This document shows, piece after piece, positions 1,699-63,478 of a stretch of 64,000 nucleotides of DNA. Position 1 is the stretch's first letter; each line of letters begins with the position of its first letter. The position numbers were made by a program, and so were the translations under genes. Source of the DNA: Escherichia phage vB-Eco-KMB43; the sequence record OR525698.1. One strand, written 5' to 3'. A model generated the notes under the pieces. It did not search any database and was not told where the DNA came from. It saw nothing but the letters and a program-made list of their open reading frames with translations.

Positions 1699-3498
1699 AT
1701 GCTAATGTTTAATAACTCCGTTAAATGGTTTACCGGAATTGTAGAAAACAGGGAAGACCCATTAATGCTGGGGCGTGTTCAGGTTAGGATTCATGGTATA
1801 CATCCCTCGCTATCCGCACACGGTGACATTCAAGGTCTCCCAACCGAAGATCTATTATGGATTACGCCAGTACAAGATATTACAAGCGCGGCGATCTCCG
1901 GTATAGGTCAAAGCCCTACTGGTATTGTTGAAGGTTCAATGGTATTTGGTTTGGCTTTAGATGAACGTTATTTAAACTGCGTTATTCTGGGTACTATTGC
2001 CGGACAATATACAGAGAAACCACTCACTACAGAAGGTTTTTGCGACCCTTCTGGTGCATATCCTCGTTATATTGGTAATGATGTTAATATTCTTGCTCGT
2101 GGCGGTATTAACCCAGAAACCGGACAAACAACAAAACCTGATAGTGTCTATATTCGAGATGAAAACACTGGAGTTGCAGTAAATCCAGACGACGAGCCAT
2201 TAGACCAAATTCCGGTTGATGATAATCCTGATTTTACAATAGAAAAAATGCTGCGGGGCGATGAGGGATATCGCGAGAAATGGTATCTTGATTCAGAAGG
2301 ATATCCGACAATAGGCATCGGGCATTTGATCATTTATAAGAAAACCAGTGATCTGGGTATTATCAATAATGAACTTTCTAAGCTGGTAGGGCGTGAAGTT
2401 ACAAACGGAAGACTTACCGCCGAAGAAGTTAGTAAAGTATTTGCCGACGATATAGAAAAGACTCGTCGTGATATGCGCAAACATCCACGAATTGCACCTG
2501 TCTATAATAAATGTAATGCTTCTCGTCGTATGGCATTAGAAAATATGGCGTTTCAAATGGGTGTTGGTGGATTGGGTAAATTTAAGAATAGTCTTGCTGC
2601 GATGTTAGCGGAAGAATGGAAACAAGCCTATGATGGATTACGTCAATCTGTATGGGCTAACCAAACTCCAGGACGATCCAGCCGTGTTTCTAAAATTATT
2701 TTAACTGGTAACTTAGAATCATATGGCGTAATTGCTCCAAAGAAAGATGAATCTGTTTCTGATGATCCGCGAGCACGTTTGAGAAATGCCCGTATTGCTG
2801 CCTATAAGACGCAGAGAGCAGAAGAAGACCCAGAAGCACCGTTTACCCCACAAGACACACGAATCATGTTTAAAGAGCCTAAGAGTTCGTATTCTGCGAG
2901 GTATCCTTATAACCATGTGTACGAGTCAGAGAGCGGTCATATTATCGAGATTGATGATACTCCTTCTCACGAACGTTATCACCGCAAACATCCTTCTGGT
3001 ACATTTGAAGAAACCAGACCGGACGGAACGAGGGTAGAAAAGATTGAGGGTGATGATTATCTGATCGTTAAGCAAGGCCGGAAAGTCAACGTTAAGGGTA
3101 ATTTGCAAGTTGTTGTTGAAGGTGACGCGCAAGTTTATTATATGGGTAATGTAATGCAAACCGTTGATGGTAACGTCACTGAATTTATTCGTGGCAATGT
3201 TAATCAGACCGTTGAAGGTACTGCTAACATGCATGTTGTAGGTGATGTTACCGCTCAGCTTGACGCTAATTTAACGGCTAATGTCAAGGGTAATGCTGAA
3301 TTAATGATCGAGGGTAACACTACCGAAACAATTAAAGGTAACTATGATTTAACCGTTGAGGGTAATTTTAATATGACCGTCAATGGCACTAAATCAGATC
3401 AGGTTAATGGTGACTGGTCCCGTAATTGTGGTGCAAGCGTTAAAGATATTGCATCTGGTACAGTTAAAATTGATGGTAGCCGTATTGATCTTGGGTGA
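1699..3498 (+). CDS. gp5: baseplate hub/cell-puncturing protein gp5 with lysozyme domain
   Basis: 599 aa; internal T4-lysozyme-like segment YLDSEGYPTIGIGHL; C-terminal octapeptide-like beta-helix repeats (VxGNxxxxV pattern, e.g. VKGNLQVVVEGDAQV, VEGTANMHVVGDV). Confidence 0.85.
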   Translation: MLMFNNSVKWFTGIVENREDPLMLGRVQVRIHGIHPSLSAHGDIQGLPTEDLLWITPVQDITSAAISGIGQSPTGIVEGSMVFGLALDERYLNCVILGTIAGQYTEKPLTTEGFCDPSGAYPRYIGNDVNILARGGINPETGQTTKPDSVYIRDENTGVAVNPDDEPLDQIPVDDNPDFTIEKMLRGDEGYREKWYLDSEGYPTIGIGHLIIYKKTSDLGIINNELSKLVGREVTNGRLTAEEVSKVFADDIEKTRRDMRKHPRIAPVYNKCNASRRMALENMAFQMGVGGLGKFKNSLAAMLAEEWKQAYDGLRQSVWANQTPGRSSRVSKIILTGNLESYGVIAPKKDESVSDDPRARLRNARIAAYKTQRAEEDPEAPFTPQDTRIMFKEPKSSYSARYPYNHVYESESGHIIEIDDTPSHERYHRKHPSGTFEETRPDGTRVEKIEGDDYLIVKQGRKVNVKGNLQVVVEGDAQVYYMGNVMQTVDGNVTEFIRGNVNQTVEGTANMHVVGDVTAQLDANLTANVKGNAELMIEGNTTETIKGNYDLTVEGNFNMTVNGTKSDQVNGDWSRNCGASVKDIASGTVKIDGSRIDLG

Positions 3499-3506
3499 GG
3501 TAACTA

Positions 3507-4073
3507 ATGGTTGAAATTCTTCCGATGAGTTCAAAATTGGAGGATATCAGCGAGCGAGAAATCTTTGAGGTGGTGTTCTCTTATAAAGCAACGCCACCGG
3601 ATGCAAATACCACATACACGATTAAAGAGTTTAAGATCAGCGAGTATCGCCCTAATAAGGGCGTTACCGTTGAAGAAACTAAAATATCTGGTGAGTATCG
3701 GGATAGTTTTTCGCTTGGCGCGGATTCTCTTAAATATATAACGAAAGATAGAATTAAAAAATCTGCCGGAAGTTTTGATGATTTACCAGATCCAACTACC
3801 GCAGATCTATATTATTTTAACGCTCCTACACGTCTACAGGAGGTTTATACTTATAAAGTAACCCTAACCTATATCCAATCTGTTTCAGAGTCTTCTGGTG
3901 GTTCTGATGAAGGAAATAGTGGTGGTTCCAATAGCCGAGAGGGTGCTGGTGAAACTAATCCGCCTCCGGTAGTAACCGAGCACACAATAGAGAAAGTTTA
4001 TACTCAAACCGTTTTTGGAAATTGGGATGTGTGGGCGCAGCAACTAAGAGATTATGTACATAGGGGTGTTTAA
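3507..4073 (+). CDS. 5.1: gp5.1-like hypothetical protein
   Basis: 188-aa ORF in the 5.1 position between gene 5 and the PAAR-like 5.4 ORF. Confidence 0.4.
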
Positions 4074-6267: not shown

Positions 6268-9200
6268 TTAAAGCGCCTAGTGTAACTAGCTTGACAATAG
6301 AAAAATTGTCTGCTAATCAGGCGTATATCACATGGGATGACGTAGGCGAAAACTTCTTTTATTTTGTGGAGTTAGCCGAAACCAGAACACGAGACGGGGA
6401 GATCATCCCCGTCGATGAGTTAAGCTGGGTAAACCTGGGATATACTGCCGACCAAAACTGGTTTGAGGATAAAAACCTTTTTCCAGAATATTATTACAAA
6501 TTTCGTGTAGCAGTAGCCGCAGAAGGATTTGAACAAAGTAAATGGATTGAAACCGAAGAGTTTCAGACATTTAAAACAAACGCATATAATTTTTCTATGA
6601 TGCGAGAGTTCAACCTTGCAAACGAGTTTATAAAGGAAAAATTTACATACGATAATCGAGAGTATGTCAAGTTTAATACCGACCTTATTCAAGCATCATT
6701 GATGAAGGAAGATTTTGTCTTTAGTCCTGAATATGCAAACATGACAAATATCTCAAACTACATTGTAGTTGATGAGAACTTTCATGAAATACAGGATCAC
6801 ATAGAAAAAGTTTGTATTGATATAAACCGCACTATGTTAGCGGAAATGAACGGTGTTTTGTACCTTTTCGAACGGTTCCAGCCGATTGTGAAAGTGTCAA
6901 ATGATAAAGGTCAATCATGGAAAGCATACAAGGCTTTTAATGACCGTGTAGGAAATCCGGTTTCCCGCACATGCGTTTATCAGTCTAAAACCACTACTTA
7001 CGTTTTAGGATATGACCGAATCTTTTACGGACGACAAGCTAGCGATACTCGATGGAGCGCGGACGATGTTCGATTTAGTGATGATACGATCACTTTTGCA
7101 AAGGTTGGTGACGAGAACGATTTAGGCTTTGACGTTGAGGTCTTTGGTGTATTTTCCAGATTAACAGGGGACACCACAAAATACGCCGAAGCTATGGCGT
7201 GCAGTGATGACTATTTGTGGGTTGGTGCTAAAGATGTTATTCGCCGGATTCGTCTTAAGAATACTCCAGTTGATACCGTACAGGGTTCGCCTACGTTTGG
7301 AGAAAAAATATTCGATCCTGATGTTATCCGAGTAACAGGAAATGATAAAGCTGTCATTCAGAAAATGGATGTGATCGACGGTAAATTGCTTGTATTTGTT
7401 ACTGGTGAAGTTAAACAGCGTTATCAAGATCCAACCAAACCAGAAAACGTTGTTCCGTCAGATGATGCGGGTGTATACTTAATAGGGAGTGATGGTCTGT
7501 CTTTTCAGAGAGTATTTGGCAACACTCCGCAGGAAAGGGAATATATTCAGCATGGGTTCAGTAATATGTCAACCAATGGTGATGAGGTGTTCATAAGCCA
7601 TTATAATCATCACTTCGAAAGCATTTTACCTGATCCAGAAACTGCCGAGAAATATGAATTGGGCGAAGCTGTAAAATATTCTCAGGAGCCAACTTATCTA
7701 ACTGATAAGAAAATACATCAAACGACTTTCAGAGCAAGTTATGATGATTTGCGTATTTGGGAATTAGGACCGCAAGCGTATTATAATGAGGCTGATTATA
7801 CATGGATGCGTCGAAACGGTGTTCGTGTATGGATCACAAATGATAATCGCCCGTTGGTTGTTTATCCAGAGGTTATCTATACTCAAGAAGTTGATACTTC
7901 CGGCATTCTTGATAAAAACAGAATTAACCGTGAAGTTTATGATAAAGGGACCGTGACCTGTTATCTTAACAATGTTAAATTTGAAGGATTTAAACAATAT
8001 GCATCCGGTGTAATGTTCCATAAAAACACGGGAGAGATCATAGGATTCTATCAATTTAACTATCGCGTTCGTGATCAGGTTGGTGTATATTGGAAACCTA
8101 CAAATGTAGCATTTGTTGCTGAATTGCAAAATCAGGTTCGAGAGGTTCCCTGGGTTCCGGTTCACTACGATCGAGAACAAGACCCAGATTTGCGACCTTT
8201 ACTGAATAAGATGACACCTGATAGCTTTTTACTTGAGAACGAAAATTTCAGAAAATTCTCTGAATATTATCTGCAATTCTTAAGTGATGGTTCAGGAACA
8301 TATTATAATAAACTAAAAAATCTGATTAAAAACAAATATCCACGCGAGCAAGATGCATATGAGTATCTTTGGTCAGAGATGAACAAACGAAACATCTATG
8401 CAGATAAAAACAAGCGAGATGCGGTCGTAAGATTCTTTGAATCCCGCAAATCAGATTTTTATTCCACTAAGGGCGTGGAGGCTTCTTATAAGTTCTTGTT
8501 TAAGTTACTTTATAATGAAGATGTGGAAATTGAGGTTGAATCACAAGCCGGACTAGAGTATGATATTGTTGTTAGTTCAACGAACATTGACGAGGATATC
8601 GTAGGTCGCACGATTTATACCACGACCGGACGGGCTAACGTGACTTATCTTGAAAGGGAATATGAAGGTGGACGTCTACGCTGGCGAGTAACCATTCATA
8701 ACCTGATCGGGCGGTTCGAAGAAGGTCAAGTGATCAAATCAGAGAAAACAGCGTTTGAAGGGATGATCCTTGTTGGTGTACGTGGTAAAGAGTTGCTGAG
8801 TAGTTCAATCGACTATATCAACCGATCACGAAGCCAATACACCATGAAGATTAAAAGTGCATTGCCAGTTTCGCGCTATGCAAATGATGTAATGCGATTC
8901 GTTCATCCTGTCGGCTTTGGGTTTATCGGTGTTACCCTGCTTACGATGTTCATTAACAGCGGGTTGAGCATGAAGCACACCGAGACTATAATTCAATCTC
9001 TGAAAAATTATAAGTTTGACAGCGGATTGCCTAGCGTGTATCCTGATCGGGTGGCAGACCTTGATGTTGATGGAAATATTAAGATTGACCCACTAACAGG
9101 GAAACCATTATACTTAACGTCACCGACAATTGGCGAAGAGTTCCCTGTTCCTCCTGAATATGATCAGGAGAACAGCGAATTGTTCCACGGACTTAAAGCA

Positions 9201-9350
9201 AGCGAACGAAGATTTGCAATGAGTCCACTGTTTGACCAGTCGGCGGTAACATTCTCTATGTTCCGTGAACTTGTAGATAAAAGGTTGAAGGATAATATAG
9301 GGAATCCACGCGATCCGAAGAATCCGACACAGAGGAAAATTAATGGCTAA
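6264..9350 (+). CDS. gp7: baseplate wedge protein gp7
   Basis: 1028 aa; size and position match T4 gp7 (~1032 aa). Confidence 0.7.
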   Translation: MIKAPSVTSLTIEKLSANQAYITWDDVGENFFYFVELAETRTRDGEIIPVDELSWVNLGYTADQNWFEDKNLFPEYYYKFRVAVAAEGFEQSKWIETEEFQTFKTNAYNFSMMREFNLANEFIKEKFTYDNREYVKFNTDLIQASLMKEDFVFSPEYANMTNISNYIVVDENFHEIQDHIEKVCIDINRTMLAEMNGVLYLFERFQPIVKVSNDKGQSWKAYKAFNDRVGNPVSRTCVYQSKTTTYVLGYDRIFYGRQASDTRWSADDVRFSDDTITFAKVGDENDLGFDVEVFGVFSRLTGDTTKYAEAMACSDDYLWVGAKDVIRRIRLKNTPVDTVQGSPTFGEKIFDPDVIRVTGNDKAVIQKMDVIDGKLLVFVTGEVKQRYQDPTKPENVVPSDDAGVYLIGSDGLSFQRVFGNTPQEREYIQHGFSNMSTNGDEVFISHYNHHFESILPDPETAEKYELGEAVKYSQEPTYLTDKKIHQTTFRASYDDLRIWELGPQAYYNEADYTWMRRNGVRVWITNDNRPLVVYPEVIYTQEVDTSGILDKNRINREVYDKGTVTCYLNNVKFEGFKQYASGVMFHKNTGEIIGFYQFNYRVRDQVGVYWKPTNVAFVAELQNQVREVPWVPVHYDREQDPDLRPLLNKMTPDSFLLENENFRKFSEYYLQFLSDGSGTYYNKLKNLIKNKYPREQDAYEYLWSEMNKRNIYADKNKRDAVVRFFESRKSDFYSTKGVEASYKFLFKLLYNEDVEIEVESQAGLEYDIVVSSTNIDEDIVGRTIYTTTGRANVTYLEREYEGGRLRWRVTIHNLIGRFEEGQVIKSEKTAFEGMILVGVRGKELLSSSIDYINRSRSQYTMKIKSALPVSRYANDVMRFVHPVGFGFIGVTLLTMFINSGLSMKHTETIIQSLKNYKFDSGLPSVYPDRVADLDVDGNIKIDPLTGKPLYLTSPTIGEEFPVPPEYDQENSELFHGLKASERRFAMSPLFDQSAVTFSMFRELVDKRLKDNIGNPRDPKNPTQRKING

Positions 9351-10338
9351 TGAAAATAGTGTGATCTATCGCTCAATCATTACTAGCAAATTCAGAACAG
9401 AAAAACTTCTGAACTTCTATAATTCTGTAGGCGATGGAGCAAATCAAATTACAATTTATGGAACGTTTGGACGTTCGGAGCCGTGGTCAGAAAACGAAAA
9501 AGAGGTGGGCTTTGCCCCACCTTATCCGACCGATTCAACGGCTGGTGTTGTTGACATGTGGACCCATATGATGGGGGCGGTTAAGATTAACAAATCACTT
9601 CTTGATGCGGTTATCCCTCGTAAAGATTGGGGTGATACCGGACAGGATAACCCGCGCACGTTCTTTATCAATGACATTGTTGTCGTAAACTCAGCACCAT
9701 ATAACCGTACAGATGTTGGTAGCGGCTGGATGGTTTACCGTGTAACTGATGTTCCTGATCGCGGTTACTGCTCGATTTCAAGCATTGACGCTAAAGTAGA
9801 GTGTTTGAAGTTGGGCGGAAAGTGGACACCTACCCATGAATCAATTGCGCCACCTGTAGGAAAGGGCGATTCTATTGATATGGGTGATGGGTATCGTTGG
9901 GAATATCTGTACACAATTCCGCCTGATGCGGCGATCAACCGTTGCACCAATGAACATATTGTTGTACCGTTCCCCGATGAACTGCGACAAGATCCGGCGC
10001 GTTGGGGCTATGACAATGTGATCACCTGGTATAATGACTATAATCTGCTTTATCGGCTGAAAGTAGTAACTTTGCGTTTTCAGGCTTATATGGACTCTGC
10101 GCAATTCCCAACTACCGCGTTAGTGGGTAATACTGGTTTCCGTCAGTTAAGCATTATCCTTAACCCATTGGAAAAGAAAGCACGCCCTAGCGATCCAGAC
10201 GTTAAAGCGGTTAAATATAAGTACCGACCGCAAGACTTAGAGCCACACTCAGGAGAAATGATCTACATGGAAAACCGACAACCTATCGTTCGGTCATTAG
10301 ACCAAACAGAACTTGTTTCTGTATTGTTTGAGTTCTAA
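9343..10338 (+). CDS. gp8: baseplate wedge protein gp8
   Basis: 331 aa; size and position match T4 gp8 (334 aa). Confidence 0.7.
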   Translation: MANENSVIYRSIITSKFRTEKLLNFYNSVGDGANQITIYGTFGRSEPWSENEKEVGFAPPYPTDSTAGVVDMWTHMMGAVKINKSLLDAVIPRKDWGDTGQDNPRTFFINDIVVVNSAPYNRTDVGSGWMVYRVTDVPDRGYCSISSIDAKVECLKLGGKWTPTHESIAPPVGKGDSIDMGDGYRWEYLYTIPPDAAINRCTNEHIVVPFPDELRQDPARWGYDNVITWYNDYNLLYRLKVVTLRFQAYMDSAQFPTTALVGNTGFRQLSIILNPLEKKARPSDPDVKAVKYKYRPQDLEPHSGEMIYMENRQPIVRSLDQTELVSVLFEF

Positions 10339-19435: not shown

Positions 19436-20176
19436 ATGTTTAACAACACTCTTTTTGCTCGCCTTGAATCGCAGAAGGACTACGAGAATACACGACAAAC
19501 AGAGATTCTTAATCCTTATGTGAACTTTCACAAATATACAAATACTCAGACGTTAGCCGACGTTATGGTCGCCGAAGCTATTCAGATGCGAGGTGTAGAA
19601 TTATATTACATCCCTCGTGAATTTGTCAAACCAGATATGATCTTTGGTGAGGATGTTCAAAGCAAATTTACTAAAGCATGGAAATTTGCGGCTTATATTA
19701 ACTCATTTGATGGGTATGAAGGAGCGGGTAATTTCTTCTCTAGTTTCGGGTATCAAGCTAATGATGAACTAACTTTTACGGTTAACCCCAACCTATTCAA
19801 GCATCAAGTAGATGATCAAGAGCCAAAATCAGGTGACTTAATTTATATTCCTATGAGCAATGATTTATTTGAAATCTCATATGTAGAGCCATATCAGCCG
19901 TTTTTTCAGGCTGGCAAAAATGCCATGCGTAAAATTATTGCAGAGAAATTCGTGTATAGCGGTGAGGAATTGCGACCAGAATTACAACGCAATGAGGGAA
20001 TTAATGTTGATGAGTTTGCGGATCTGGATCTTGCACCGATCACTAATCTGGACGGGTTAACAGATATCAACTTAGATCAGTACAAAGAAGATAAGCAATT
20101 CAGAAGCGAAGGACAAGATTTTATTGATCCGTTTGATCCTATTAATGGCAAGGGTTCACCTTTCGCCGATTTTTGA
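19436..20176 (+). CDS. gp14: neck protein gp14
   Basis: 246 aa; synteny. Confidence 0.65.
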
Positions 20177-37809: not shown

Positions 37810-37845
37810 TTTGTATACTGTATTTATTGAGTGAGGCTATTCGCT

Positions 37846-39330
37846 ATGCAAGATATTAAAATTCACTTTCTGAACTATTCCCATGTTCAAATTGAATGTA
37901 GCGATTCAATTTTATTAGAAATGCGAGATTATTTTAGTTTTGAAGTCGAGGGAGCGCGGTTTCAAAAAAGATTTAAGTATGGTGGATGGGATGGGCGTAT
38001 TCGTCTTTTAGACTACAACGGAAAGTTGCCTATCGGCCTAACTAAAACCGTGGGAATCTTCGCTAAAAATATGGGCTATAGCGTATGGGTAGATCCTCGC
38101 TTATTCGAAAAAGAACAAGTTACAGAAGAAGAAATTACAAAATGGTGTAATGACTTAGAATTATATTCCGGTGCTAACAGGATCACCCCGCACTGGTATC
38201 AATCAAAGGCTGTCTTTGAAGGTATCCATCATAAACGCCGTATGTTAGTTTTGCCTACGTCCGCTGGTAAATCTGCGATTGCTTGTATGTTGTCTCGCTG
38301 GTACTTAGAGAACTACGAAGGGAAAGTGCTGATCATCGTTCCTACCACGTCGCTAGTGCTGCAAATGCGTGATGACTTTGTTGATTATCGCCAGTTTCCT
38401 TATGAAGCAATTCATACTATCATGAGCGGTACTAGTAAACACGTAGGTGATCGCCTGATCGTTGTTAGTACGTGGCAATCAGCATGTAAACAGCCTCGTG
38501 AGTGGTTCCAACAATTCGGGATGGTTATTGTTGACGAATGTCACAAAGCCACTGCTAAAAACCTGCTAAACATCGTTACTGATATGGATCATTGCCAATT
38601 TAAGATCGGTATGACTGGTTCCCCTCGTGACGGGAAAGCTAACATGATGCAGTATGTCGGGCTTTTCGGTGATATTTCTAAGATCGTGAGTATTGACCGC
38701 CTGATGGAAGAAGGGCAGGTGACAAAACTGAAAATTAACTGTCTTTTCCTTCGTTATACCGATGAGGAATGTAGCGCGGTTAAGGGTAGAGAATATGCGG
38801 AAGAGATCAAGTATATTACGTCTAACCCACGACGAAATAAGTTTGCTTGTAATTTGGCGCTAAAACTCGCTAAGAAGGGCGAAAACGTATTCCTTATGTT
38901 CCGCAATACTAAGCACGGAAAACTTATGTATGACGCGTTACAGAAGGTACACGACAAGGTTTATTATATTGACGGTGGAGTTAAGACAGAAGAACGTGAT
39001 GAATTTAAGAAATTAGCGGAAGGGGAAACCGGGATCATTTGCGTTGCATCCTATGGTGTGTTCTCTACTGGTGTTTCAATTAAGAATTTGCACCATGTTA
39101 TTTTCGGTCATCCAGTGAAGGAATCAACTATCGTTCGTCAGAGTATCGGTCGTGCATTGCGTAAACATGGTTCTAAGGATATTGCAACGGTCTGGGATCT
39201 TATAGATCATCTGGCGGTGAAGACAAAGAGCAAGAATGCTAAGAAACAGTTTAGTCACCTTAATTATGCTCTTAAACACGCGCTTTTGAGGATACAGCTT
39301 TACAATACCGATAAATTTGAGTATGCTTAA
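37846..39330 (+). CDS. uvsW: UvsW SF2 DNA helicase
   Basis: helicase motifs LPTSAGKSAI (Walker A-like) and DECHK (DExH); ATG 37846 (MQDIKIHF) downstream of the promoter; T4 UvsW is about 500 aa. Confidence 0.75.
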   Translation: MQDIKIHFLNYSHVQIECSDSILLEMRDYFSFEVEGARFQKRFKYGGWDGRIRLLDYNGKLPIGLTKTVGIFAKNMGYSVWVDPRLFEKEQVTEEEITKWCNDLELYSGANRITPHWYQSKAVFEGIHHKRRMLVLPTSAGKSAIACMLSRWYLENYEGKVLIIVPTTSLVLQMRDDFVDYRQFPYEAIHTIMSGTSKHVGDRLIVVSTWQSACKQPREWFQQFGMVIVDECHKATAKNLLNIVTDMDHCQFKIGMTGSPRDGKANMMQYVGLFGDISKIVSIDRLMEEGQVTKLKINCLFLRYTDEECSAVKGREYAEEIKYITSNPRRNKFACNLALKLAKKGENVFLMFRNTKHGKLMYDALQKVHDKVYYIDGGVKTEERDEFKKLAEGETGIICVASYGVFSTGVSIKNLHHVIFGHPVKESTIVRQSIGRALRKHGSKDIATVWDLIDHLAVKTKSKNAKKQFSHLNYALKHALLRIQLYNTDKFEYA

Positions 39331-39380
39331 ACACGCGCTTTTGAGGATACAGCTTTACAATACCGATAAATTTGAGTATG
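39271..39380 (+). repeat. perfect tandem duplication, 2 x 55 bp, spanning the uvsW stop codon
   Basis: CTTAAACACGCGCTTTTGAGGATACAGCTTTACAATACCGATAAATTTGAGTATG at 39271-39325 and again at 39326-39380. Confidence 0.9.
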
Positions 39381-39446
39381 TCACGAAAACCATCGAGATT
39401 TAATAAATAGGGGCTTTAATGCCCCTTTATTCTACGGAGATTAAAA

Positions 39447-39683
39447 ATGATTAGCTTTAAACGTTTTTTGGTTGAGGCCGCTATTGACGGTTTCATGCGT
39501 AAGATTTATTCTTGTAATACTATCGAGGGATTAAATGAACTTGAGGCATATTATGAGAAGCGCAAGAAAGAAACAGAATTGAAACCTGCTGATGATATTT
39601 CGATCCGTGATGCCATCGCTGGACGCCGTAAGCAACTGGAAGCGGACAACGAGCCAGAAGATGAGCCGGAAGAGGATTTTTAA
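39447..39683 (+). CDS. uvsW.1: UvsW.1-like small protein
   Basis: 78 aa (T4 UvsW.1 76 aa) immediately downstream of uvsW; acidic C-terminus. Confidence 0.55.
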   Translation: MISFKRFLVEAAIDGFMRKIYSCNTIEGLNELEAYYEKRKKETELKPADDISIRDAIAGRRKQLEADNEPEDEPEEDF

Positions 39684-48842: not shown

Positions 48843-50894
48843 TTACATTTTAAATTTATCTGGCATTGCGTCTACAGATACCAGATCAGCGATAAGCTGA
48901 CGTAGAGTTGCCTTATCTGCTTTCTTACGTTCGGTTTTAGCTTCGCTAATGAAGCTGGAGAAAGACAGGTCAGAAGCAGGTTTAATAACACCTTCACGGA
49001 TGAATGCATCACCGTCTGCGATCATCTCGCCAGATTCTTGTAATGCTGCCAGTTCATTTTTGTTCATAATATGTGCCTCAATGTAATAAGTTTCTTGTGA
49101 ATCCGTCGATGCCGTAGCACGAGTTACCGTATCAAAGGATAACACAACACCGCGAGGAAGTAAAATCTCGCATTCTTTGTAAGCAAATGCTTTGTTACCT
49201 ACTGGCAACACAGGGATGTTTTCCGCGCCAGCAATGGAGAAAGCAACATTAGCGCCACCTTCACCGCGAGAGCCAGCCATAGAATCAACACCAGCAACGG
49301 CACTAGCCACGTTTGCATTCCAGCCGCCAAAAATGTTAGGTGCAAGGGAAGTGCTCACATAGTTTTTAAAGTAAAACGCTTTTTGCTTACGTGCAGTTTC
49401 CCACATTTGAGTCCGGAAGTCCATACCACGATACAGAATAGTACCCGGATCAAGTTTAACGCCATAGTTGGAGAAGGCATTATCCAGTGCATCGCACATC
49501 TTGACCAATTCTTCTGGATCTGCGATGCCTTCAAACTCTTCCAGCTTACGATCAGTTAGGAAGTTGTTCATATTGATGTATGCTGCATCGGCATATTCGC
49601 TCAATACAAAACCTTCCGCGCCCGGCAGATCAAGATCAATATCTGCCATCATTTCACCCATGTTGCTAGCAATTGCTTCAAACATACCGGAAGCAACATT
49701 ACGTAGGGCATCGGTTTTAATCTGGGTGATATGACTACGCAGCATTTCAGCTTTTACATCTGCTGGCATAGACTGGTCTACTCGATCCATTGCCAGGGCG
49801 GTGATCTTGTTTTCGAATACTTCCTCGCTCATGATTTCTTTTAAGCGTTTGATTGATGCTGCGATAACTTCCGCAGACAACGGATCATATTGATCCTGAA
49901 CTTTTACCAGTTCGCTTACTGCGTATTTTGCATCTGCTTCGCTTTCAAAAATAGTACGCATGAAACCATAGCGAGTGATAATATCACTTGTCCAGTCATT
50001 CAGAGAACGGGCGGTTGAACGTTCTAATGCTTGACGATCAATCAGAGTATTAAACTGTTTCTTAGGTTCGGCTTCGGTGATATCTTCTTCCGGTTTAAGA
50101 TTAATTTTTTCTGGATGATTCACATAGTCGCTGTTATAGGTCGCTTGAGTTTTCAGCATTTCTTCTTTAGTCAAACGAGATTTAGCCGCTACGCGTTGTT
50201 CTGCTTCCGCGTTTCGTTCTTCTTCTGACACAAGACTAGCCGCATACGCCTCATCTTTAGTCAGAGATTCACCAGTAGCCTTAGATACCCAGCGATCACC
50301 TAAATCACTTTCTACTTTAGTGAACAAGGATTCATCAAGTTTAATCCCTTTAATCTTATCAATCGCCATCCCGCGACGCTTGACAACAACTAAAGCGATC
50401 TTTTTGCTGGTCATTACTTCCTGCTGGAATACTTCAAACTTCGGTGTACGACGCACCAAACGCTCTATAACGCGCTTAACCAGTTCGGTCTTACCTTTCA
50501 TGCGGGATACGTTAAAACGGAACATAACAGCGTCTAATTGCGCTTTACGGGCTGTTTCCATAACCACATCAAAAGCACTTGCCATAACTGCAATCGGGTT
50601 ATCTCCTAGACCATTTTTAAGCTGTACAATACGACCGCTTTTGTTCATTTCGCACAGTACAACATGTGCGGTCTTGTCACCCATACGAATGATTTTAGGT
50701 GTTTTGTTGGTGAAGTTACAAAGACGGACAATCACATCTTTATCGCGTGTCTGTACTGCAAAAAGCTGTTTAGGATTCTGCTTAGGCTTTAAGCACTGTA
50801 CCGGAGCAATACTGCCAAAGTTTTCTTCCTCTTCCGTCAACAGCCATTTCTCGAAAGATTCAATCATTAGATCGTCGATTTCTAAGTTAAACAT
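48843..50894 (-). CDS. alt: Alt ADP-ribosyltransferase
   Basis: 683 aa (T4 Alt 682 aa); ART motifs ILYRGMDF, YVSTSLAP, KECEILLPRG near C-terminus. Confidence 0.7.
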   Translation of the reverse strand: MFNLEIDDLMIESFEKWLLTEEEENFGSIAPVQCLKPKQNPKQLFAVQTRDKDVIVRLCNFTNKTPKIIRMGDKTAHVVLCEMNKSGRIVQLKNGLGDNPIAVMASAFDVVMETARKAQLDAVMFRFNVSRMKGKTELVKRVIERLVRRTPKFEVFQQEVMTSKKIALVVVKRRGMAIDKIKGIKLDESLFTKVESDLGDRWVSKATGESLTKDEAYAASLVSEEERNAEAEQRVAAKSRLTKEEMLKTQATYNSDYVNHPEKINLKPEEDITEAEPKKQFNTLIDRQALERSTARSLNDWTSDIITRYGFMRTIFESEADAKYAVSELVKVQDQYDPLSAEVIAASIKRLKEIMSEEVFENKITALAMDRVDQSMPADVKAEMLRSHITQIKTDALRNVASGMFEAIASNMGEMMADIDLDLPGAEGFVLSEYADAAYINMNNFLTDRKLEEFEGIADPEELVKMCDALDNAFSNYGVKLDPGTILYRGMDFRTQMWETARKQKAFYFKNYVSTSLAPNIFGGWNANVASAVAGVDSMAGSRGEGGANVAFSIAGAENIPVLPVGNKAFAYKECEILLPRGVVLSFDTVTRATASTDSQETYYIEAHIMNKNELAALQESGEMIADGDAFIREGVIKPASDLSFSSFISEAKTERKKADKATLRQLIADLVSVDAMPDKFKM

Positions 50895-63274: not shown

Positions 63275-63478
63275 TTAACCGTATACGCGAAAGTATTCTA
63301 CTGATCCGTCGCTATACTGTTTTACATTGAATGTATTCACACCATGATTATTTCTCATGATGACATATACACTGCGACGTTCATCGCTAAACGGCATAAC
63401 TGGCGCTGGTTCAATATCAACACTAAAACCACGTTTAGCAAGTGCTTCGCCTAATTGCTTGAGTTTATCGGTAAACAT
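63275..63478 (-). CDS. hypothetical small protein (67 aa)
   Basis: ORF in the cd.x position. Confidence 0.4.
   Translation of the reverse strand: MFTDKLKQLGEALAKRGFSVDIEPAPVMPFSDERRSVYVIMRNNHGVNTFNVKQYSDGSVEYFRVYG

What the first reader, a model, noticed from the sequence alone, without database searches (positions are those of the whole stretch)
39271..39380. Perfect 55-bp tandem duplication that creates the uvsW stop codon
The 55-mer CTTAAACACGCGCTTTTGAGGATACAGCTTTACAATACCGATAAATTTGAGTATG occurs twice back to back. Because 55 is not a multiple of three, the second copy is read out of frame and supplies the TAA that ends UvsW. Without the duplication the frame would continue a few codons to the TAA at 39401-39403, ending ...EYVTKTIEI. 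A perfect repeat implies a very recent event or an assembly artefact.
Basis: seen in the sequence. Interest (0 to 1): 0.45.

Follow-up and report, generated by a model that had tools for sequence, protein, structure and literature searches.

The report
Untrimmed 55-base assembly overlap in uvsW
The perfect 55-base tandem repeat that cuts the phage helicase gene uvsW short is most likely left over from genome assembly (an untrimmed 55-base contig overlap), so it is an annotation and quality problem rather than new biology.

Summary
A perfect 2 x 55-bp head-to-tail repeat lies at 39271-39380. Its junction (GAGTATG|CTTAAAC) creates the TAA at 39328-39330, so uvsW ends ...EYA* instead of the conserved ...EYVTKTIEI*.

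The repeat is unique to this sequence. All 55 Krischvirus GenBank records and about 20 independent NCBI, ENA and Logan contigs have one copy. The junction is absent from the viral, metagenome and genome collections.

The best explanation is an untrimmed de Bruijn graph overlap (k = 55, a SPAdes-type value) at a contig junction, made internal when the contig was re-opened or concatenated. The supporting points are:
- The length equals k, there are exactly 2.0 copies at 100% identity, and there is no border microhomology or notable structure.
- The unit is exactly the 55-mer before a natural branch point at 39381, which is both a SNP and a homing-endonuclease mosaic breakpoint.
- A T4-like phage assembled with SPAdes had 55-bp overlapping ends.
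- Two of 8 sampled Krischvirus records keep 127-bp end overlaps, one documented as a SPAdes assembly.
- Similar ~79-bp repeats in other phages were disproved by Sanger sequencing in most cases.

A real recent duplication cannot be excluded without reads (about 12%). Interest is low.

The parts
37846..39330 (+). uvsW as it reads in this sequence (494 aa, SF2 helicase), ending ...DKFEYA*
   Evidence: Aligns 99-100% with the 500-aa UvsW of RB49, LF73P4, Makalu_002 and kvi from MQDIK onward. The close homologue from LF73P4 matches T4 UvsW structure 2OCA at E = 1e-196.
39271..39325 (+). repeat copy 1, read in frame (LKHALLRIQLYNTDKFEY plus the first base of the next codon)
39326..39380 (+). repeat copy 2, the probable surplus copy; read out of frame, after the stop it lies in the 3' untranslated stretch
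   Evidence: absent from all relatives
39328..39330 (+). TAA stop created by the copy1/copy2 junction (G|CT TAA)
39381..39381 (+). first base after the unit; a natural branch point (T here and in RB49, LF73P4 and kvi; C in Makalu_002 and G2494; C followed by a recoded tail in Whisky and JK32)
   Evidence: alignments
39401..39403 (+). native uvsW stop codon, used if only one copy is present (...EYVTKTIEI*)
   Evidence: same position as the stop in 14 of 14 related loci
39409..39426 (.). G+C-rich hairpin (AGGGGC-loop-GCCCCT) between uvsW and uvsW.1, terminator-like on both strands
   Evidence: conserved in relatives
39447..39683 (+). uvsW.1 (78 aa), intact; the gap from the uvsW stop is 116 nt here against 43-44 nt in relatives
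   Evidence: (PF11637 UvsW-1)

Best explanation
The second 55-bp copy is not in the phage. It is an untrimmed de Bruijn graph overlap. Krischvirus genomes are circularly permuted and terminally redundant, so short-read assemblers return a circular-looking contig, or adjacent contigs, whose ends share exactly k bases. Here k = 55, which is a default largest k of SPAdes/metaSPAdes for short reads and one of Shovill's k values. In such a graph, contigs end at branch vertices. The unit is exactly the 55-mer that precedes base 39381, a site where related phages branch three ways. A minor variant or cross-sample reads would therefore place a contig end precisely there. When the contig was re-opened at a reference start, or contigs were concatenated, without trimming the overlap, the 55-mer ended up twice in tandem inside uvsW. 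Because 55 is not a multiple of three, the annotated gene picks up a false early stop. The true gene has one copy and encodes a 500-aa UvsW ending ...EYVTKTIEI. Shown: the anatomy of the repeat, its uniqueness, the polymorphism at 39381, and the existence of this artefact class in the same genus. Inferred: that this particular record was assembled at k = 55 and was rotated or joined.
For: 1. Anatomy. There are exactly 2.0 copies at 100% identity, with 0 bp of border microhomology. Single-strand folding is no better than shuffles, z = -0.11.
2. The length of 55 matches a documented case. T4-like phage 132, assembled with SPAdes 3.12 at default settings, gave a contig with 55-bp overlapping ends. 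The authors trimmed one end before 're-opening' the contig at the T4 start (PMC8483715).
3. Same genus. Two of 8 sampled Krischvirus GenBank records (ELT3, SSG23), both flagged circular, keep an exact 127-bp end/start overlap. SSG23 was assembled with SPAdes in metaviral mode (PMC12533011).
4. Repeats of ~79 bp from short-read Shovill/SPAdes assemblies appeared in 7 of 10 przondoviruses and were shown by Sanger sequencing to be artefacts in most (PMC10438801). The Phage Annotation Guide warns of duplicated regions in contigs that exceed 100% of the genome length (PMC8785237).
5. Uniqueness. All 55 phage records are single-copy, as are about 20 further independent contigs. The junction is absent from IMG/VR, JGI metagenomes and GTDB genomes.
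6. The right edge of the unit abuts a natural three-way branch point at 39381. This is what a k = 55 graph vertex predicts.
7. The lost tail is conserved in T4 (...YVMKTVN), in all Krischvirus loci checked, and in a distant prophage homologue (...YATKTIAI).
8. Window base 1 maps to RB49 position 63,455 and to 63-65.8 kb in RB49-collinear records. This fits the window being bases 64,001-128,000 of a record rotated to the RB49 convention.
Against: No reads, assembly metadata or independent assembly of this isolate could be found. Its Hoc-like protein and its truncated UvsW are not on record, so the artefact is inferred rather than observed. The unit lies in a hyper-divergent mosaic patch: only 0.07-0.6% of 55-bp windows nearby are as divergent. 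A purely random contig end would not explain that, so the account needs the added assumption of a heterogeneous sample. The same patch is a homing-endonuclease-associated recombination hot spot, where a real repair error is conceivable. uvsW is non-essential in T4 (established knowledge), so a truncated gene would be viable. Sf20 carries a perfect 74-bp tandem duplication in its alt-like gene, and 74 is not an odd k value, so not every such repeat in this genus is explained by a k-mer overlap.
Confidence: 0.8

Rival explanations
1. The duplication is real and very recent. It arose in this phage stock by illegitimate recombination or an error in double-strand-break repair at the homing-endonuclease-associated hot spot at the 3' end of uvsW. 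UvsW then truly lacks its last six residues, and the gene is followed by a 116-nt untranslated spacer before uvsW.1.
For: The unit coincides with a hyper-divergent co-conversion patch. Its 3' edge is the natural recombination breakpoint next to the endonuclease cassette insertion site seen in Whisky and JK32. uvsW is dispensable in T4 (established knowledge). Perfect identity of the two copies fits a recent event. Sf20 shows another out-of-frame perfect duplication, in a different gene that is dispensable in T4.
Against: A length of exactly 55 would be a coincidence with a standard assembler k. There is no microhomology at the borders. The nearby TATG and TATGCT repeats would predict a 57-bp period, not 55 (reading). 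No secondary structure favours slippage. The repeat is absent from every one of about 75 relatives. It removes a tail conserved from T4 to a prophage homologue. The duplication leaves the original unit-to-tail sequence intact, so it would give no protection from an endonuclease that targets that sequence.
Confidence: 0.12
2. It is an artefact of another kind. One possibility is reference-guided consensus calling or polishing that handled the hyper-divergent patch (14-15 mismatches in 55 bp against RB49-type references) as an insertion, later homogenised by further polishing. Another is a join made across the ends of a record treated as circular by a downstream pipeline rather than by the submitter.
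For: The unit coincides with the most divergent patch in the neighbourhood, where mapping-based methods fail most often. Records flagged circular that still carry overlapping ends exist in this genus.
Against: A polishing route gives no reason for a length of exactly 55, nor for the right edge falling exactly at 39380. The wrap-around variant has the same root cause as the best explanation and differs only in who made the join. The window start maps where base 64,001 of an RB49-collinear record would lie, which argues against a window that wraps a raw contig.
Confidence: 0.07

Closest known systems
k-mer-length overlapping ends of SPAdes contigs from circularly permuted phages (for example T4-like phage 132, PMC8483715)
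   Same: A T4-type, circularly permuted genome with an exact 55-bp repeat. The phage 132 workflow included re-opening the contig at a reference start.
   Different: In phage 132 the overlap sat at the two contig ends and was trimmed before re-opening. Here the two copies are already adjacent and internal, and the assembly history is unknown.
Untrimmed 127-bp end/start overlaps in deposited Krischvirus records ELT3 (PQ368571.1) and SSG23 (PQ351811.1)
   Same: Same genus. Exact repeat whose length equals a SPAdes k value. SSG23 is documented as a SPAdes assembly.
   Different: Their overlap is 127 bp and still lies at the record ends, so it would become a tandem duplication only if the record were joined or rotated.
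~79-bp assembly-introduced repeats in short-read przondovirus assemblies (PMC10438801)
   Same: Internal short perfect repeats made by Shovill/SPAdes short-read assembly, with a length equal to a Shovill k value (my own knowledge). They were unsupported by read depth, and Sanger sequencing confirmed most as artefacts.
   Different: A different phage group with defined terminal repeats. Those repeats lay near the genome termini rather than in a core gene.
Historical T4 uvsW / uvsW.1 sequencing error
   Same: The same locus. An error at the 3' end of uvsW changed the annotated C-terminus (PMC1524935).
   Different: In T4 the error fused uvsW with uvsW.1 into a 587-aa ORF. Here the gene is shortened by six residues and uvsW.1 is untouched.
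Real microhomology-mediated tandem duplications in T-even phages
   Same: Head-to-tail duplication of unique sequence in a gene that is dispensable in T4.
   Different: These typically have short direct repeats at the end points (established knowledge), and none is present here. Their lengths also bear no relation to assembler k values.

Membership tests
Assembler k-mer overlap artefact (untrimmed de Bruijn contig overlap) | Two copies only, head to tail, 100% identical | tested here: met
Assembler k-mer overlap artefact (untrimmed de Bruijn contig overlap) | Repeat length equals a k value used by common assemblers | tested here: met
   The length is 55. SPAdes at default settings gave 55-bp overlapping ends in a T4-like phage. 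That 55 is a default k of SPAdes, metaSPAdes and Shovill is my own knowledge of those programs.
Assembler k-mer overlap artefact (untrimmed de Bruijn contig overlap) | The repeated k-mer is a graph vertex, that is, it directly abuts a site where sequences in the sample could branch | tested here: inconclusive
   Base 39381, directly after the unit, is polymorphic and a mosaic breakpoint among relatives. Whether this particular sample was polymorphic there cannot be seen without reads.
Assembler k-mer overlap artefact (untrimmed de Bruijn contig overlap) | Genome type that assembles as a circle, and a record re-opened or joined after assembly | tested here: inconclusive
   The window is a Krischvirus, and T4-type phages are circularly permuted (established knowledge). 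The window start maps to RB49 position 63,455, which fits a record collinear with RB49. The window's offset within its record is not known.
Assembler k-mer overlap artefact (untrimmed de Bruijn contig overlap) | Absent from independent sequences of the same or closely related genomes | tested here: met
   None of 55 phage records and none of about 20 other contigs has two copies. No independent assembly of the same isolate was found.
Assembler k-mer overlap artefact (untrimmed de Bruijn contig overlap) | No reads span the copy1/copy2 junction, and read depth drops over the repeat | not testable with these tools
   No read data are available.
Real slipped-strand or microhomology-mediated tandem duplication | Short direct repeat at the two end points in the ancestral sequence | tested here: not met
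   There is 0 bp of extension on either side. The nearby TATG/TATGCT repeats would give a period of 57, not 55.
Real slipped-strand or microhomology-mediated tandem duplication | Hairpin or quasi-palindrome that promotes slippage | tested here: not met
   The DNA fold is -10.9 kcal/mol against a shuffle mean of -10.6, z = -0.11.
T4 UvsW family (SF2 helicase) - identity of the affected gene | Full-length similarity to T4 UvsW, with uvsW.1 immediately downstream | tested here: met
   LF73P4 UvsW (99% identical to the window's) matches 2OCA at E = 1e-196 over residues 3-499. Relatives' products hit UvsW_N, ResIII and Helicase_C, and the neighbouring gene hits PF11637 UvsW-1.
T4 UvsW family (SF2 helicase) - identity of the affected gene | Conserved C-terminal tail (Y-x-T/M-K-T-I/V-x-x) | tested here: not met
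   The window protein ends ...EYA. T4, 14 of 14 Krischvirus loci and a prophage homologue all keep the tail. The tail-coding bases are still present, out of frame, at 39381-39403.

The most novel reading that the evidence does not exclude
The duplication is real. It would then be the scar of an imprecise repair of a double-strand break at a homing-endonuclease target site at the 3' end of uvsW. That would show that homing-endonuclease traffic in T4-like phages can generate homology-independent tandem duplications that remodel the C-terminus of a core recombination helicase.
Probability: 0.08. Interest if true: 0.3.

Novelty: not a real feature. Interest (0 to 1): 0.07.

Why it matters
If the repeat is an artefact, as argued, the practical consequences are these:
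- The record should be corrected by deleting 55 bp.
- UvsW should be annotated as 500 aa ending ...EYVTKTIEI.
- The genome length is overstated by 55 bp.
- Automated scans should treat unique, perfect tandem repeats whose length equals a common assembler k (such as 55, 77, 79 or 127) as suspect, especially in circularly permuted phages.

The case also shows a useful diagnostic. The repeated k-mer ends exactly at a site where related genomes branch, as expected for a de Bruijn graph vertex.

If the duplication were real, it would be a minor natural truncation of a helicase that is dispensable in T4, at a homing-endonuclease hot spot. That would be of modest interest.

Tried and rejected
1. Searches for the junction sequence, exact and degenerate, in viral contigs, metagenome contigs and genome contigs found nothing. 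Searches for the 55-mer unit in viral contigs and metagenome contigs also found nothing. So there is no independent occurrence, and the source contig is not held there.

2. Exact-protein look-ups of the truncated UvsW (494 aa and 499 aa) and of the window's Hoc-like protein found nothing on record. An independent assembly of the same isolate could therefore not be found. Look-ups of UvsW.1 and Inh returned only relatives up to 99.3% identical, all single-copy.

3. The E. coli genome and plasmid collections do not hold the source. The only hits were to a prophage helicase.

4. Microhomology-mediated slippage was rejected. The borders share 0 bp, and the candidate TATG/TATGCT repeats predict the wrong period (57 bp).

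5. Structure-driven slippage was rejected (z = -0.11).

6. A bubble between the RB49-type and LF73P4-type patches as the graph branch was rejected. Its vertices would be the 55-mers flanking the patch, not the unit itself. The branch that fits is at 39381.

7. Protection from endonuclease cleavage as a selective reason was rejected, because the original unit-to-tail sequence is still intact.

8. I did not run the large protein-homology searches or structure prediction. The question was settled at the DNA level and their cost was not justified.

Full report
**The observation.**
The window is part of a Krischvirus, an RB49-like T4-type phage of E. coli. Its nearest GenBank relatives are about 98-98.6% identical. 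At 39271-39380 the 55-mer CTTAAAC...GAGTATG occurs twice, head to tail, without a mismatch. Tandem Repeats Finder scores it 220, and no shuffle reproduces it. It is the only perfect tandem duplication with a period of 15 or more in the 64 kb. The repeat does not extend by a single base on either side.

By homology, uvsW starts at ATG 37846, not at the GTG at 37831 that the mechanical ORF list gives. Copy 1 begins in frame at codon 476, and the junction reads GAG TAT G|CT TAA. The gene therefore ends ...DKFEYA* at 39328-39330 (494 aa). With one copy removed it ends ...DKFEYVTKTIEI* at 39401-39403 (500 aa).

**Uniqueness.**
- All 55 Krischvirus records in the phage collection span 292-296 bp where the window spans 347-350 bp, which means one copy.
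- Alignment with RB49, LF73P4, Makalu_002, kvi, Whisky, JK32 and G2494 shows a clean 55-bp gap.
- About 20 further contigs from NCBI, ENA and Logan carry the identical UvsW.1 or Inh protein. All encode a 500-aa UvsW, and none contains the junction. In the 14 loci checked residue by residue, the protein ends ...TKTIEI and lies 43-44 nt before uvsW.1, against 116 nt here.
- The junction sequence is absent from IMG/VR, the JGI metagenomes and the GTDB genomes. The unit is absent from IMG/VR and the JGI metagenomes.
- The isolate itself is not in any collection I could query.

**What is lost.**
The six-residue tail is conserved. T4 UvsW (PDB 2OCA) aligns to the very end, with ...KFNYVMKTVN against ...KFEYVTKTIE. 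A prophage UvsW homologue in E. coli, only 52-82% identical in nucleotides over most of the gene, ends ...KFSYATKTIAI. A truncation would therefore remove residues under purifying selection. uvsW is dispensable in T4 (established knowledge), so this does not decide the matter.

**Why an assembly artefact is the best explanation.**
T4-type genomes are circularly permuted, so de Bruijn assemblers return a contig whose two ends repeat exactly k bases.
- The literature held here documents this for a T4-like phage. SPAdes 3.12 at default settings gave 55-bp overlapping ends, which the authors trimmed before re-opening the contig at the T4 start (PMC8483715). Skipping the trim yields an internal, perfect 55-bp tandem duplication.
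- As a positive control I compared the first and last 400 bases of eight Krischvirus GenBank records. Two (ELT3 and SSG23, both flagged circular) keep an exact 127-bp overlap. SSG23 was assembled with SPAdes (PMC12533011).
- Repeats of ~79 bp from short-read Shovill/SPAdes assemblies appeared in 7 of 10 przondoviruses, and Sanger sequencing confirmed them as artefacts in most (PMC10438801).
- The Phage Annotation Guide tells authors to look for such duplicated regions (PMC8785237).
- The anatomy here fits: the length equals k, there are exactly two copies, identity is perfect, there is no border microhomology, and no secondary structure favours slippage (z = -0.11).
- Window base 1 maps to RB49 position 63,455 and to 63.0-65.8 kb in the many RB49-collinear records. 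This is what one expects if the window is bases 64,001-128,000 of a record rotated to the RB49 convention, meaning it was manipulated after assembly. This step is an inference.

**An unexpected coincidence and what it means.**
The unit is not randomly placed. Against RB49-type relatives it carries 14-15 mismatches in 55 bp, while the 20-kb mean is 0.4-1.1. Only 0.07-0.6% of 55-bp windows are that divergent.

The reason is a mobile element. Whisky and JK32 carry a 361-aa ORF (PHROG 681 'endonuclease', E = 1e-36; nothing above threshold in Pfam or NCBIfam, and no PDB match) between uvsW and uvsW.1. It has its own hairpin and ribosome-binding site. The uvsW tail in those phages is synonymously recoded (GCT ACC AAG ACT ATA GAA ATC TAA, still ATKTIEI*). 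The 3' end of the inserted ORF merges into the native uvsW end. This looks like a free-standing homing-endonuclease cassette.

The window, LF73P4 and Makalu have the Whisky-type patch upstream of GAGTATG, the RB49-type tail downstream, and no cassette, so the patch is a co-conversion tract. Three different continuations are known directly after the unit: T-CACG, C-CACG and C-TACC.

In a de Bruijn graph with k = 55, a branch at 39381 makes the preceding 55-mer the vertex, and that 55-mer is the unit exactly. Contigs end and begin with the vertex sequence. So the artefact model explains both the length and the right-hand edge, provided the sample held a minor variant or cross-sample reads at this hot spot (inference). 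The left edge is then simply 55 bases upstream, and indeed no polymorphism is seen at the base before the unit.

A real event would explain the location (a repair hot spot) but not the length of 55 or the lack of any microhomology.

**Rivals.**
A real recent duplication remains possible (about 0.12). The hot spot, the dispensability of uvsW, and a second out-of-frame perfect tandem duplication in a finished record all keep it alive. That second case is 74 bp in the alt-like gene of Sf20, whose product is 589 aa against 683 aa in relatives. Another kind of finishing artefact, such as polishing at the divergent patch or a downstream circular join, gets about 0.07.

**Verdict.**
The most probable cause is an untrimmed 55-base assembly overlap (0.80, or about 0.87 for any artefact). 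It is not a biological feature, and interest is low. Read mapping or a single PCR would settle it.

Noticed in passing
window 39279-39381; L033 (Whisky MZ504878.1) 1378-2575; L034 (JK32 MK962753.1) 1378-2575: Whisky and JK32 carry a 361-aa endonuclease-family ORF (PHROG 681) between uvsW and uvsW.1, with a synonymously recoded uvsW tail. It looks like a free-standing homing-endonuclease cassette. The window, LF73P4 and Makalu keep the cassette-type patch (14-15 differences in 55 bp against RB49-type) but not the cassette, so the patch looks like a co-conversion tract ending at 39380/39381.
   Followed up: partly
window 38686-39213; L015 (E. coli NZ_CP042903.1) 7947-9437: Sixteen complete E. 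coli chromosomes matched a 314-bp part of this stretch (window 38900-39213) at 87-99% identity. In the one examined, the gene is a prophage-borne UvsW homologue of 496 aa, next to a recombinase-family gene, in a prophage beside a truncated ycdX. The gene as a whole is only 52-82% identical in nucleotides to the phage uvsW, but it contains a ~530-bp patch that is 95-100% identical. This suggests a recent exchange between a lytic Krischvirus and a temperate phage.
   Followed up: partly
L005 (Shigella phage Sf20 MF327006.1) 19979-20127, record ~49625-49773: A perfect 74-bp x 2 (+1 base) tandem duplication lies inside the alt-like ADP-ribosyltransferase gene. The product is 589 aa against 683 aa in relatives. 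This is a second out-of-frame perfect duplication in a finished Krischvirus record, and whether it is real or an artefact is unknown.
   Followed up: partly
PQ368571.1 (ELT3) and PQ351811.1 (SSG23), record ends (L021/L022, L029/L030): Both records, flagged circular, have an exact 127-bp overlap between their last and first bases. These are untrimmed assembler overlaps, so the stated genome lengths are 127 bp too long.
   Followed up: yes
L040 (Escherichia phage AV108 OR352938.1) 3197-3928: A 243-aa GIY-YIG (SegE-like, weak Pfam hits) gene sits between inh and uvsW in AV108 only. It is a second putative homing-endonuclease insertion flanking uvsW.
   Followed up: no
window 39651-39673 (inside uvsW.1): A 12-bp repeat (GAGCCAGAAGAT, 1.9 copies) lies in the acidic C-terminal part of UvsW.1. 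FL04 and a Logan contig (SRR9866666) encode a 74-aa UvsW.1 instead of 78 aa, a 12-nt difference. This may be real in-frame copy-number variation of the repeat, but I did not verify that.
   Followed up: no
window 37831-37846: The mechanical ORF list starts uvsW at GTG 37831 (MRLFAMQDIK...). All relatives start at the ATG that corresponds to 37846 (MQDIK...).
   Followed up: yes
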